From positions 1,408,001 to 1,472,000 of the forward strand of contig CAVZQN010000004.1 of assembly GCA_963777505.1 (NCBI GenBank): 64,000 nucleotides of DNA. Direction: 5' to 3'. The DNA comes from an uncultured bacterium. Lineage in GTDB: Bacteria > Acidobacteriota > HRBIN11 > JAKEFK01. The notes under the pieces were generated by a model. It was not told the DNA's origin, ran no database searches, and saw only the letters and a program-made list of their open reading frames with translations. This document shows positions 20,691-22,445 of this stretch, in pieces. Both the position numbers and the translations under genes were made by a program. Position 1 is the stretch's first letter. Each line of letters begins with the position of its first letter.

Positions 20691-22445
20691 AAGCTGCGAT
20701 CCGAATTTGGCTTAAGTACTATTGCTATAGTACTACTATTATCGCAAATCGCTTTAACGCAGAGCTATAAATTTGAAGTTCCCGAAGTCTTATTGGATGC
20801 GAAAATCAATCAAGACAGCACTGTGGAGCTCTACTATGAAATTCAGTTTCGCAACCTACCTGGCTCTCACGCGATTGATTATGTAGATATCGGCCTTCCT
20901 GATGTAGATCTTGATTTCGAGGTCATTGAAGCTGGGTGTGACGGCGTACCAGCAGCATCCTCTGGACCTTCGGAATATATACATCCTGGCATCGCAGTAG
21001 GACTTCAAAATCCGATCCCGGCTGGCGAATCGGGTAAATTTTATTATCGAATGCTCATCCGCAACAAAATGGTCTATCAAGACACCACTCGCGATAATTA
21101 CGCATCCTTCCAAATCACGCCTACATGGTTTGGCTCAGATTATGTTGTTGGCGTTTCGACTGTGACAATTCGTGCCATCTTGCCGGAAGGTGTATTGCCT
21201 TCCGAAGTGCTCAGTCAAAAAGTGCCGTTCAACAGAACTGAGACAGTGGATGGAAGAACCGCGGCAATTTTTAAACAAAATTATTTCTTTGCTTCGGCAT
21301 ATAAAGTTGGCGTTTCATTTCCATCCAGAAACATGACGGGCGTAATTAAGCAAACAACCTGGGATTTAATCGTGCAGTGGTATGAAAGGAACAAATTCTA
21401 CTTCAACTTTTTATTCATTCCTCTGACATTGTTTTTTACTGGTTGGGCAATGTTTCGAGCTGGAGGAAAAGGCTGTTTTGGAATCTTGCTTTTTTTCGTC
21501 CTGGGCTATTTCAACTTCGGTGAATATGTCGGACGAGGTCGACTCTTTTTGATATCACTGATGGCGGCTGGCTTTGTGGAGTTTCTGCGCAGGCTGCGGC
21601 GTCCTTCTTATTTGCCCGCGCTTGTCAGTGTTGAAGGCGGTGGTATTCGAAGAGGGCTAACAGCACCTGAAGCCGCCGTTTTGCTTGAGATTCCTGCGAG
21701 CAAGGTTGTTACGCTAATTCTGTTCGGTCTAATGAAAAAAGGGTTCATTCGTGAAAAGGAAAAAGATCCGCTTGAATTTGAGAAGATTAGTCCTCGACCA
21801 GATGATTCAGTTCTTCATGACTACGATACGCAAGCTTTAGAGATACTTGCAAGACCTTCGAATTATTCCCAGTTGAAGCCGTATCCTGTTAATGAAAGAG
21901 ATTTTGGTCCGGTGATTGATACGATTGTTGAATCTTTGAAGACAAAACTAAAAGGTCATAATCTTGATGAAACGCGTTCTTACTATAAACAGATCGTTTC
22001 GCGTGCATGGGTCGAAGCTAAGGAGATTGGGGATGTTCAGGCATGGAATAAAAAAATGGATGAAAAAATCGATTGGATGATGCTTGATTCTGATTTTGAA
22101 GATCGTTTTCGTCCTTATAACAATCGCTATACACCTCGTTCTAGCTTTCCATCGAGTGGCTCAGGGTCTTTCGGAACGAGAACCACTTCTGGACCTTCGG
22201 TGGGTGGCCCAGGAATTACAGACATTGCCGGATCCATGGCAGCATGGATGCAAACTACAGCAGGATCTGTCGTTTCTTCAGTTGTACCCAAAGACGCCGC
22301 CGCTCCTTTGTTTGATGGCGCAAAACTGATGAATTCAACTGGTGGTTCTGGTGGTAGCGGCCGTAGTAGTGGTGGTGGAAGCAGTTGTGCGTGTGCATGC
22401 GCGGGATGCGCCTGTGCGTGCGCATGTGCCGGCGGCGGACGTTAA
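20687..22445 (+). CDS. Membrane protein (DUF2207-like layout) with C-terminal (Cys-Ala)n tail
   Basis: Frame is open from 20691 and encodes a signal-like segment upstream of the called TTG 20793; beta-rich ectodomain, about three TM helices, GLTAPEAA, G/S linker, CACACAGCACACACAGGGR. True start uncertain. Confidence 0.8.

What the first reader, a model, noticed from the sequence alone, without database searches (positions are those of the whole stretch)
22338..22445. Terminal seven-Cys (CA)3-G-(CA)4-GGGR motif selected at the protein level
Seen: codons are tgt gcg tgt gca tgc gcg gga tgc gcc tgt gcg tgc gca tgt gcc ggc ggc gga cgt taa. Synonymous codons vary, so this is not a slipped microsatellite. 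It follows a flexible GGSGGSGRSSGGGSS linker. The last TM is followed by RRLRR, which predicts a cytoplasmic tail by the positive-inside rule. Inference: alternating Cys would all face one side of a strand, suiting serial crosslinking, metal or Fe-S binding, or multiple lipidation.
Basis: partly seen in the sequence, partly recalled or inferred. Interest (0 to 1): 0.75.

Follow-up and report, generated by a model that had tools for sequence, protein, structure and literature searches.

The report
Invariant Cys-Ala tail, radical-SAM partnered
A membrane protein ends in an almost unchanging cysteine-alanine tail that always sits beside radical-SAM peptide-modifying enzymes, so it is probably a built-in substrate for an undescribed protein modification found in several bacterial phyla.

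Summary
The ORF at 20793-22445 (+) ends GGSGGSGRSSGGGSS-CACACAGCACACACAGGGR-stop, with mixed synonymous codons.

The tail is under very strong protein-level selection. 239 of 263 relatives carry a (C-A/V)n tail, although their bodies are only about 30-45% identical. 77 of 82 DNA sources end in CACACAGGGR-stop. They do so in 75 different DNA spellings, using all six Arg codons and all three stops.

The protein is an unannotated, distant DUF2207 relative (hhalign 98.35%). It has a signal peptide, an exported domain, TM helices and a cytoplasmic C-terminal part.

The protein sits in a conserved five-gene cassette: a Zn-ribbon membrane protein, a radical SAM/SPASM enzyme, a pseudo-radical-SAM paralogue, the tail protein and a methyltransferase. 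In 301 genomes of the phylum, 49 of 50 genomes with this radical SAM enzyme have a Cys-repeat DUF2207-like gene next to it. That count includes two further architectures.

Best reading: the tail is a protein-embedded, RiPP-like core modified by the radical SAM enzyme, most likely by thioether cross-links. The chemistry is inferred only.

The parts
17627..17962 (+). Small membrane protein (111 aa): N-terminal hydrophobic part plus a C-terminal CxxC...CxxC zinc ribbon, ending ...APKW. First gene of the cassette.
   Evidence: ORF. Weak zinc-ribbon Pfam hits. Homologue next to the tail gene in 14 of 17 fully flanked loci. C-terminus is PKW in 62 of 63 homologues.
17956..19434 (+). Radical SAM/SPASM enzyme with an N-terminal PqqD-like (RRE-type) extension. 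The ORF listing gives a TTG start at 17920; ATG 17956 is more likely.
   Evidence: Pfam Radical_SAM 4.6e-27 and SPASM 2.7e-12. CNNACNHC motif. Invariant CxxxCxxC and seven SPASM Cys in 39 orthologues. PqqD E 0.1 here, 2.9e-4 in the L078 orthologue. Best solved relatives are SkfB (6.5e-28) and PqqE (4.2e-27).
19431..20690 (+). Pseudo-radical-SAM paralogue (419 aa). It has no CxxxCxxC, keeps a partial SPASM Cys motif, and has an N-terminal PqqD-like domain.
   Evidence: Only SPASM is hit in Pfam. PqqD E 0.014 here; 26.1 bits (above the 23.4 cut-off) in the L078 orthologue. 0 of 18 orthologues have CxxxCxxC. It is the closest paralogue of the radical SAM enzyme in the genome: 178.8 bits against 81.9 for the next.
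20687..22445 (+). Gene for the DUF2207-like membrane protein carrying the tail. It reads as a clean ORF only from TTG 20793; ATG 20687 and the signal peptide are put out of frame by one extra base near 20709-20715.
   Evidence: 596 cluster representatives at E<=1e-3. hhalign to canonical DUF2207: 98.35%, E 1.1e-14.
22338..22385 (+). Gly/Ser-rich flexible linker (T-GGSGGSGRSSGGGSS) before the tail.
   Evidence: A Gly-rich stretch precedes the tail in all homologues printed. Canonical DUF2207 proteins end in a poly-Gly tail here.
22386..22445 (+). The CACACAGCACACACAGGGR tail (22386-22442) and stop codon: two CxCxC(xC) blocks joined by two residues, then GGGR.
22446..22525 (+). Long AT-rich perfect hairpin between the tail gene and the methyltransferase gene. 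It may be a terminator, attenuator or RNA-stabilising element.
   Evidence: strand folding: -31.9 kcal/mol, z -7.31, 0 of 200 shuffles as good. The simple terminator scan did not list it.
22523..23227 (+). Class I SAM-dependent methyltransferase, the last gene of the cassette.
   Evidence: Pfam Methyltransf_11 2.1e-19. Best NCBIfam hit is the DVU_1556 family at 67.6 bits, below the 155 cut-off. Present in 11 of 17 fully flanked loci and 41 of 82 sources.

Best explanation
The 19-residue tail is a protein-embedded, RiPP-like core peptide. It is held at the cytoplasmic face of the membrane by a DUF2207-like anchor and a flexible Gly-rich linker. It is the substrate of the radical SAM/SPASM enzyme encoded two genes upstream. 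That enzyme and its catalytically dead paralogue carry PqqD-like recognition domains that would hold the C-terminal region of the tail protein. The active enzyme then modifies the Cys residues, most likely by forming several thioether bridges from Cys sulfur to carbons of the neighbouring Ala or Gly residues. This is what all characterised radical SAM/SPASM enzymes with Cys-rich peptide substrates do (recalled knowledge). The cassette methyltransferase then adds one or more methyl groups. The product stays attached to the membrane protein, because no protease or exporter is conserved in the cassette. Shown: the conservation of the tail, the gene linkage and the domain content. Inferred: the topology, that the tail is the substrate, and the chemistry. 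I put about 0.5 on 'the tail is the radical SAM substrate' and about 0.3 on thioether bridges specifically.
For: 1) Conservation. The tail is invariant while synonymous sites are saturated, and bodies are only 27-45% identical.
2) Linkage in metagenome loci. The five genes are found together in two gene orders. Of 17 loci with at least 5 kb on both sides, 15 have a radical SAM-family gene, 14 the Zn-ribbon gene and 11 the methyltransferase. No sixth gene recurs.
3) Phylogenetic profile in the same 301 genomes of the phylum. 38 have the tail protein, and 37 of these have the radical SAM enzyme on the same contig next to it (the exception, G116, is a fragment). Radical SAM scores of 536 bits or more occur in 36 genomes, all of them tail-positive.
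4) The pairing recurs on other scaffolds without the other cassette genes. 9 of 9 loci of a sister DUF2207-like family ending (ACHS)n-ACVSGGAH have a radical SAM/SPASM gene immediately downstream. 3 of 3 loci of a ~320-aa single-TM architecture carrying ...CACACVSCACACACAGGGG... lie next to one. The common denominator of the radical SAM enzyme is therefore the Cys-repeat tail.
5) Enzyme type. It has a full CxxxCxxC and a 7-Cys SPASM domain. PqqD-like N-termini are present. The best solved relatives are the thioether-forming SkfB and PqqE.
6) Precedent. The sister tail weakly hits NCBIfam TIGR04117, 'Cys-Xaa-Xaa-Xaa repeat radical SAM target protein' (23.4 bits, cut-off 50).
7) Same compartment. 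Single-TM relatives place the tail on the side opposite the exported N-domain, and a K/R-rich stretch follows the last TM.
Against: No modification was observed; everything rests on gene context and analogy. The PqqD hits of the window's own proteins are weak (E 0.1 and 0.014). Two of 17 fully flanked loci (L071, L076) have the tail gene without a radical SAM gene nearby. CxC runs are typical metal-thiolate ligands, and the sister family pairs every Cys with a His, which looks like metal binding. The Zn-ribbon protein has its own near-invariant C-terminus PKW (62 of 63), so it could be a substrate or co-substrate. There is no leader cleavage site, protease or transporter, unlike classical RiPPs. 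The radical SAM tree was unresolved. No RNA run holds the stretch, so expression is untested.
Confidence: 0.5

Rival explanations
1. The tail is an unmodified metal-thiolate or Fe-S binding site, like a metallothionein CxC cluster, at the membrane's inner face. The radical SAM pair either loads or builds the cluster, or acts on something else.
For: Two CxCxC(xC) blocks with all Cys on one face. The sister family has (ACHS)n with Cys-His pairs. The cassette also holds a zinc-ribbon protein.
Against: Invariant Ala (only Val tolerated) and an invariant GGGR over four phyla are tighter than metal ligation alone would require. SPASM enzymes with PqqD-like domains act on peptides in all characterised cases (recalled). 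No metal transporter or chaperone recurs in the loci.
Confidence: 0.2
2. The real or additional radical SAM substrate is the Zn-ribbon protein's conserved C-terminus ...E-x-P-K-W (for example a Lys-Trp type cross-link). The Cys tail would serve another role, such as docking or redox.
For: PKW ends 62 of 63 homologues. There are two PqqD-bearing proteins and two conserved C-termini in the cassette. WgkB-type and streptide-type enzymes are among the NCBIfam/PDB relatives.
Against: The (ACHS)n loci (9 of 9) and the short (CA)n loci (3 of 3) keep the radical SAM enzyme but show no Zn-ribbon homologue.
Confidence: 0.1
3. The tail is a redox-active polythiol/disulfide relay or sulfur carrier. It would be reversibly oxidised rather than permanently modified.
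For: Seven closely spaced thiols on a flexible tether. A Rex-like gene lies beside one locus (L078; the name is by eye and recall, not tested).
Against: This does not explain the obligatory radical SAM/SPASM partner or the methyltransferase. No thioredoxin-like partner recurs.
Confidence: 0.07
4. The tail is multiply lipidated (S-acylated), or is itself a membrane-inserted segment.
For: The Cys/Ala stretch scores as mildly hydrophobic (Kyte-Doolittle 1.7).
Against: No acyltransferase is found in the cassette. The segment ends in GGGR and follows a poly-Gly linker. Canonical DUF2207 tails are poly-Gly and not hydrophobic.
Confidence: 0.03
5. The tail is a low-complexity or microsatellite artefact without function.
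For: The DNA has a TGY-GCN hexamer periodicity.
Against: 75 distinct DNA spellings encode the same 10 terminal residues in 77 loci. The motif is conserved across Acidobacteriota, Chloroflexota, Armatimonadota and Planctomycetota.
Confidence: 0.005

Closest known systems
Sactipeptide/ranthipeptide systems: radical SAM/SPASM thioether synthases with Cys-rich precursors (SkfB/SkfA, CteB/SCIFF, PapB/freyrasin; the chemistry and the last two names are recalled)
   Same: A radical SAM enzyme with a full SPASM domain and a PqqD-like recognition domain is encoded next to a Cys-repeat peptide segment. SkfB is the best solved relative. PapB, StsB and AlbA models are among the sub-threshold NCBIfam hits.
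   Different: The 'precursor' is the last 19 residues of a ~590-aa integral membrane protein. No protease or exporter is conserved. The repeat has period 2 with only Ala or Gly as possible acceptors. No NCBIfam maturase model reaches its cut-off.
NCBIfam predicted radical SAM targets: TIGR04117 'Cys-Xaa-Xaa-Xaa repeat radical SAM target protein', TIGR04135 'FibroRumin family radical SAM-modified Cys-rich RiPP', and the ACGX system (TIGR04340)
   Same: All are computationally defined Cys-repeat segments paired with radical SAM/SPASM enzymes. The (ACHS)n sister tail hits TIGR04117 at 23.4 bits.
   Different: The window protein hits none of them: 0 families at E<=0.01, and the tail alone gives E 0.51 to TIGR04135. 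To my knowledge (recall) those families are small peptides or proteins and are untested.
DUF2207 (Pfam PF09972 / PF20990) membrane proteins
   Same: Profile-profile homology over 357 columns: 98.35%, E 1.1e-14. Both have a signal peptide, an exported N-domain, TM helices, a 'GL(T/S)PAE' helix-turn-helix-like segment and a Gly-rich C-terminal tail. The ESM Atlas lists DUF2207 clusters among the look-alikes.
   Different: The Pfam models do not hit. The poly-Gly-Trp end is replaced by the Cys-Ala motif. The partner genes are radical SAM genes rather than LemA, the partner mentioned for DUF2207 in PMC12631010 (passages read).
QhpC/QhpD of quinohemoprotein amine dehydrogenase (recalled)
   Same: A radical SAM/SPASM enzyme installs several Cys thioethers in a polypeptide that stays part of a functional protein rather than being released.
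   Different: QhpC is a small soluble subunit with Asp/Glu acceptors. No sequence relation was tested here.
Metallothionein-type CxC clusters
   Same: Runs of Cys-X-Cys.
   Different: Metallothioneins are small proteins with variable X residues. Here X is invariant Ala and the motif is tied to radical SAM genes. Metal binding was not tested.

Membership tests
Radical SAM/SPASM peptide-maturase system (sacti/ranthipeptide-like) | Radical SAM core with CxxxCxxC | tested here: met
   Pfam PF04055 4.6e-27. CNNACNHC in the window enzyme. C146/C150/C153 invariant in 39 orthologues.
Radical SAM/SPASM peptide-maturase system (sacti/ranthipeptide-like) | C-terminal SPASM domain with seven Cys | tested here: met
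   PF13186 2.7e-12. Invariant C355, C369, C387, C430, C433, C439 and C443.
Radical SAM/SPASM peptide-maturase system (sacti/ranthipeptide-like) | PqqD-like RiPP recognition element | tested here: inconclusive
   Window proteins give E 0.1 and 0.014, below the cut-off. The L078 orthologues give 21.5 bits and 26.1 bits (cut-off 23.4).
Radical SAM/SPASM peptide-maturase system (sacti/ranthipeptide-like) | Cys-rich substrate encoded beside the enzyme | tested here: met
Radical SAM/SPASM peptide-maturase system (sacti/ranthipeptide-like) | Thioether (Cys S to carbon) bonds in the product | not testable with these tools
   Needs mass spectrometry or NMR.
Radical SAM/SPASM peptide-maturase system (sacti/ranthipeptide-like) | Leader cleavage and export genes (protease, ABC transporter) | tested here: not met
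   Clustering all ORFs of 82 sources gave no recurrent family beyond the five cassette genes; the next was a ligase-like family in 13 loci.
DUF2207 (PF09972/PF20990) | Match to the Pfam model above its gathering score | tested here: not met
   0 Pfam families for the window protein. None for P0001 or P0107 at E<=1.
DUF2207 (PF09972/PF20990) | Homology by profile-profile comparison, and shared architecture | tested here: met
   hhalign 98.35%, E 1.1e-14, against five canonical DUF2207 proteins that score 108-116 bits to PF09972.
TIGR04117 Cys-Xaa-Xaa-Xaa repeat radical SAM target | Model hit above cut-off; Cys at period 4 | tested here: not met
   No hit for the window protein; its period is 2. 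The sister (ACHS)n family scores 23.4 bits against a cut-off of 50.
Metallothionein-like metal-binding peptide | Stoichiometric metal-thiolate cluster | not testable with these tools
   Only the CxC pattern is seen.

The most novel reading that the evidence does not exclude
A branch of the DUF2207 superfamily carries ribosomally encoded Cys-repeat modules, (CA)n or (ACHS)n. Dedicated radical SAM/SPASM enzymes convert these in situ into a membrane-tethered, cytoplasm-facing poly-thioether or metal-thiolate prosthetic group. This would be a new class of protein-derived cofactor, or 'RiPP that never leaves its protein'. It may include radical-SAM-made Cys-to-Ala (lanthionine- or sactionine-like) bridges at period 2, and a second modified C-terminus (PKW) on the partner Zn-ribbon protein.
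Probability: 0.3. Interest if true: 0.85.

Novelty: new variant of a known kind. Interest (0 to 1): 0.72.

Why it matters
This would be a large uncharacterised system. It has 596 cluster representatives at 50% identity and a 757-member Atlas cluster, and it occurs in at least four phyla. No Pfam or NCBIfam model covers it, and the searchable literature holds no mention of it.

It offers three things. First, it gives a foothold on the function of DUF2207-type proteins. Second, it is a case where radical SAM peptide chemistry acts on a full-length membrane protein rather than on a released peptide. Third, it provides a minimal, chemically simple substrate (only Cys, Ala, Gly and Arg), in which any modification would be easy to read by mass spectrometry and could reveal new radical SAM chemistry.

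Tried and rejected

The complex prediction of the radical SAM enzyme with the last 95 residues was submitted. There is no verdict.

The PDB sequence search with the family profile gave 0 hits at E<=1.

The literature gave nothing on this system:
- 'cacacagggr' (matched anywhere in a word): 0 papers.
- Radical SAM/SPASM/cysteine-rich/PqqD terms: 9 papers, none on this system by title or abstract.
- ACGX/TIGR04340/TIGR04117/TIGR04341/'Cys-Xaa-Xaa-Xaa repeat': 35 papers held a term. In the 15 listed, only 'acgx' occurred, in unrelated senses.
- DUF2207: 9 papers, none linking it to radical SAM by title or abstract. I read passages of PMC12631010.
- Ranthipeptide/sactipeptide/transmembrane/Chloroflexi/Acidobacteria: 0 papers.
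- Cys-Ala repeat terms: 10 unrelated papers.
Supplements were not consulted.

A maximum-likelihood tree of cassette radical SAM enzymes, pseudo-enzymes, sister-family enzymes and four own-genome paralogues did not finish its careful search. The quick tree had long branches and outgroups placed inside the ingroup, and some rows were probably mis-extracted ORFs. I draw nothing from it.

A search for forms of 1032-2945 aa carrying the tail found none; this is weak evidence. A search among shorter proteins gave mostly contig fragments, plus the short architecture.

No RNA holder was listed among the sequencing runs. The five DNA holders had small shares (0.06-0.11).

The methyltransferase's resemblance to ArsM and DVU_1556 models is generic and below the cut-offs, so I did not use it.

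Full report
**The observation.** The + strand ORF 20793..22445 (550 aa from a TTG) ends with a Gly/Ser linker and then CACACAGCACACACAGGGR-stop. The last hydrophobic segment is followed by RRLRR.

**Is it more than chance?** The word-indexed search found 252 relatives at E<=1e-3. The exhaustive search of 50%-identity representatives found 596, of which 167 are at E<=1e-30.
- 263 sequences were returned. Of these, 239 end in a (C-[AV])n tail.
- The main forms are CACACAGCACACACAGGGR (101), CACAGCACACACAGGGR (55) and CACACACAGCACACAGGGR (45).
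- Rarer forms have the block separators AS, VS or DS, or three blocks ending SGGAG.
- By eye, the 24 without a tail are mostly truncated or frameshifted entries.
- The bodies of these proteins are only about 27-45% identical to the query. In a 114-sequence alignment, 14 of the 17 invariant columns lie in the tail.

At the DNA level, 79 of 82 sources carry the tail, and the three exceptions run into contig ends. 77 sources end in CACACAGGGR-stop. Those 33 nt occur in 75 different spellings that use every synonymous codon, including AGA/AGG and CGN for Arg, and all three stop codons. Synonymous sites are saturated and non-synonymous change is essentially absent. The motif is therefore selected as protein and is not a slipped repeat.

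The general pattern is two (rarely three) blocks of CxCxC or CxCxCxC, with x = Ala (sometimes Val). The blocks are joined by two residues (x-G or x-S) and followed by GGGR.

**What the protein is.** Pfam and NCBIfam give no hit. The 99%-identical relative P0001 is 589 aa and starts with a signal peptide.

The window has one extra base near 20709-20715. It separates ATG 20687 and the signal peptide from the rest of the frame. One otherwise identical 151-nt contig from a soil metagenome lacks a base at 20709 (depth 2). The shift is therefore either an assembly error or a recent lesion.

The family has this layout:
- a signal peptide;
- a ~210-aa net-acidic domain;
- three hydrophobic segments, followed by a K/R-rich stretch;
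- a conserved YLP..VEGGGIKRGLTAPEAA..LL segment and a helical region;
- a poorly conserved stretch, a Gly-rich linker and the tail.

The ESM Atlas look-alikes of the homologue P0107 include DUF2207 clusters. I tested that lead. A profile of 114 family members aligns to five canonical DUF2207 proteins (each 108-116 bits to PF09972) with probability 98.35% and E 1.1e-14 over 357 columns. Canonical DUF2207 proteins end in a poly-Gly run plus Trp or Phe. The Cys-Ala motif therefore replaces the end of a tail that is already a feature of the superfamily.

**The gene context.** Immediately upstream on the same strand lie three genes:
- a 111-aa membrane protein with a CxxC...CxxC zinc ribbon;
- a radical SAM/SPASM enzyme;
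- a paralogue with a SPASM hit but no radical SAM hit.

A class I methyltransferase lies downstream.

An Acidobacteriota locus whose tail protein is 43% identical has the same five genes in the same order. I then examined 80 metagenome loci found with the family alignment (27-35% identity). The same five genes recur in two orders: Zn-ribbon / radical SAM / pseudo / tail / methyltransferase, as in the window, and Zn-ribbon / tail / radical SAM / pseudo / methyltransferase.

The linkage counts are as follows.
- 17 loci have at least 5 kb on both sides. Of these, 15 have a radical SAM-family gene (in L007 only the pseudo-enzyme is in range), 14 the Zn-ribbon gene and 11 the methyltransferase.
- L071 and L076 are true exceptions.
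- Over all 81 loci, 61 show the radical SAM family. 18 of the 20 without it have less than 5 kb on at least one side.
- Clustering every ORF of the 82 sources found no sixth recurrent gene, and in particular no protease or transporter.

**A phylogenetic profile agrees.** In 301 genomes sampled from the window's phylum, 47 hit the family profile: 38 strongly and 9 weakly. In the same 301 genomes, a profile of the cassette radical SAM enzyme hits 50 at E<=1e-70.
- 36 genomes score 536 bits or more, and all of them are among the 38 tail-positive genomes.
- G078 adds a partial hit. G116, the one tail genome without a radical SAM hit, holds only a fragment.
- In all 37 genomes with both genes, the two lie side by side on one contig (coordinates).

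**Two further architectures.** The 9 weak hits are a sister family (hhalign 99.6%, E 3.7e-24). These are DUF2207-like proteins (PF09972, E 1e-4) with one TM, whose C-termini are runs of ACHS ending ACVSGGAH. In 9 of 9 loci a radical SAM/SPASM gene, 29-33% identical to the window's, follows directly. No Zn-ribbon, pseudo-enzyme or methyltransferase homologue is detected there. That tail weakly matches NCBIfam TIGR04117, 'Cys-Xaa-Xaa-Xaa repeat radical SAM target protein' (23.4 bits, cut-off 50).

Four more radical SAM-positive genomes had no family hit. Three of them encode ~320-aa proteins next to the radical SAM gene; one locus has three tandem copies. These proteins have a signal peptide, a DUF2207-like N-domain, one TM and a Gly linker, followed by ...SCACACVSCACACACAGGGGAGCSKK.... 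The protein database holds more of this type, with the exact 19-mer followed by AGCS.K... (for example a 47-member cluster).

Together, 49 of the 50 radical SAM-positive genomes have a Cys-repeat DUF2207-like gene beside the enzyme. Two conclusions follow. The constant partner of this radical SAM clade is the Cys-repeat tail, not the Zn-ribbon protein or the methyltransferase. And the motif need not be C-terminal.

**The enzymes.**
- The radical SAM enzyme has CNNACNHC. In 39 orthologues the CxxxCxxC and seven SPASM cysteines are invariant.
- Its best solved relatives are the thioether synthase SkfB (6.5e-28) and PqqE (4.2e-27), followed by a cytosylglucuronate decarboxylase (1.1e-20) and the peptide maturase SuiB (6.6e-18); CteB and anSME match far more weakly. 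No NCBIfam maturase model reaches its cut-off.
- The paralogue lacks CxxxCxxC in the window and in 0 of 18 orthologues. It mostly keeps 4-6 Cys in its last 90 residues; the L078 form lacks even these.
- The paralogue is the radical SAM enzyme's nearest relative in the genome: 178.8 bits against 81.9 for the next.
- Both proteins have ~140-aa N-terminal extensions with PqqD-like matches. These are weak in the window (E 0.1 and 0.014) and better in L078 (21.5 and 26.1 bits, cut-off 23.4).

**Topology.** No predictor was available, so the topology is inferred. The signal peptide and acidic N-domain should be outside. An odd number of TM segments and the K/R-rich stretch after the last one put the C-terminal part inside. 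The single-TM relatives make this unambiguous for them. Radical SAM enzymes work in the cytoplasm (established knowledge).

**Mechanism.** I read the tail as a RiPP-like core that is part of a full-length membrane protein. It is recognised by the PqqD-like domains of the radical SAM/pseudo-enzyme pair, modified on its Cys residues and then methylated, and it stays tethered.

By analogy with every characterised radical SAM/SPASM enzyme that has a Cys-rich peptide substrate (recalled), the likeliest chemistry is Cys-S-to-carbon thioether bridges. The only available acceptors are Ala and Gly. The numbers of Cys and of Ala/Val in the repeat are equal (7 and 7, 6 and 6, or 10 and 10). This fits one bridge per C-A unit but does not prove it.

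Rivals remain. The tail could be a metal-thiolate or Fe-S site; the CxC pattern and the Cys-His pairs of the sister family favour this. The Zn-ribbon protein's near-invariant PKW end (62 of 63) could be a substrate or co-substrate. A redox relay is also possible. Nothing found here supports lipidation.

**Comparison and novelty.** The kind of system, a radical SAM/SPASM maturase plus a Cys-repeat target, is known, and NCBIfam already names untested 'radical SAM target' repeats. Several things appear new:
- this particular, very widespread family (Acidobacteriota, Chloroflexota, Armatimonadota and Planctomycetota by source names);
- its period-2 Cys-Ala motif, and the near-invariance of that motif;
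- the fact that the target is the tail of a DUF2207-type membrane protein;
- the five-gene cassette with a dead paralogue.

No curated model covers the family. None of my six literature searches found it.

**Limits.** There is no structure or complex model, no expression data and no resolved enzyme tree.

Noticed in passing
window 20687-20793: One extra base near 20709-20715 puts the ATG at 20687 and the signal peptide out of frame with the rest of the tail-protein gene. The 99%-identical P0001 and one otherwise identical soil-metagenome contig (one base left out at 20709, depth 2) read through. It is either an assembly error or a recent frameshift.
   Followed up: partly
window 22446-22525: An AT-rich, near-perfect long hairpin lies directly after the tail gene's stop and before the methyltransferase start (-31.9 kcal/mol, z -7.31). 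The simple terminator scan did not list it. It could set different expression levels for the two genes.
   Followed up: partly
window 17627-17962 and homologues in L001, L009-L082: The small Zn-ribbon membrane protein of the cassette ends in Y-Q-x-x-E-x-P-K-W, with PKW in 62 of 63 homologues. This is a second conserved C-terminus in the same cassette and could itself be modified or recognised.
   Followed up: partly
L089-L097 (e.g. L095:6295-7896 and 7927-9318): A sister DUF2207-like family in the same phylum ends in six to eight ACHS repeats plus ACVSGGAH. It is always followed by a radical SAM/SPASM gene (9 of 9 loci). L094 encodes a 938-aa version.
   Followed up: partly
L098:7188-8123, L099:3016-6050 (three tandem paralogues), L100:4977-5936: Short (~320 aa) single-TM proteins carry the same Cys-Ala motif internally (...CACACVSCACACACAGGGGAGCSKK...) next to a related radical SAM enzyme. 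The radical SAM matches in two of these genomes contain an in-frame TAA or TGA, which I did not examine.
   Followed up: partly
L066:12242-13804 (-) and L080:6426-8003 (-): In two loci the best radical SAM homologue (57-58% identical to the window's) lies about 3 kb from the tail gene on the opposite strand, next to the methyltransferase. This is a third gene arrangement.
   Followed up: no
P0170 (protein): One cluster representative has Trp in place of the fourth Cys of the tail (CACACAGWACACACAGGGR). It may be a sequencing error or a rare tolerated change.
   Followed up: no
L078:6734-7366 (-): By eye, the gene upstream of the cassette in this locus looks like a Rex-type redox-sensing repressor. 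The name is from recall and no tool was run. It does not recur across loci.
   Followed up: no
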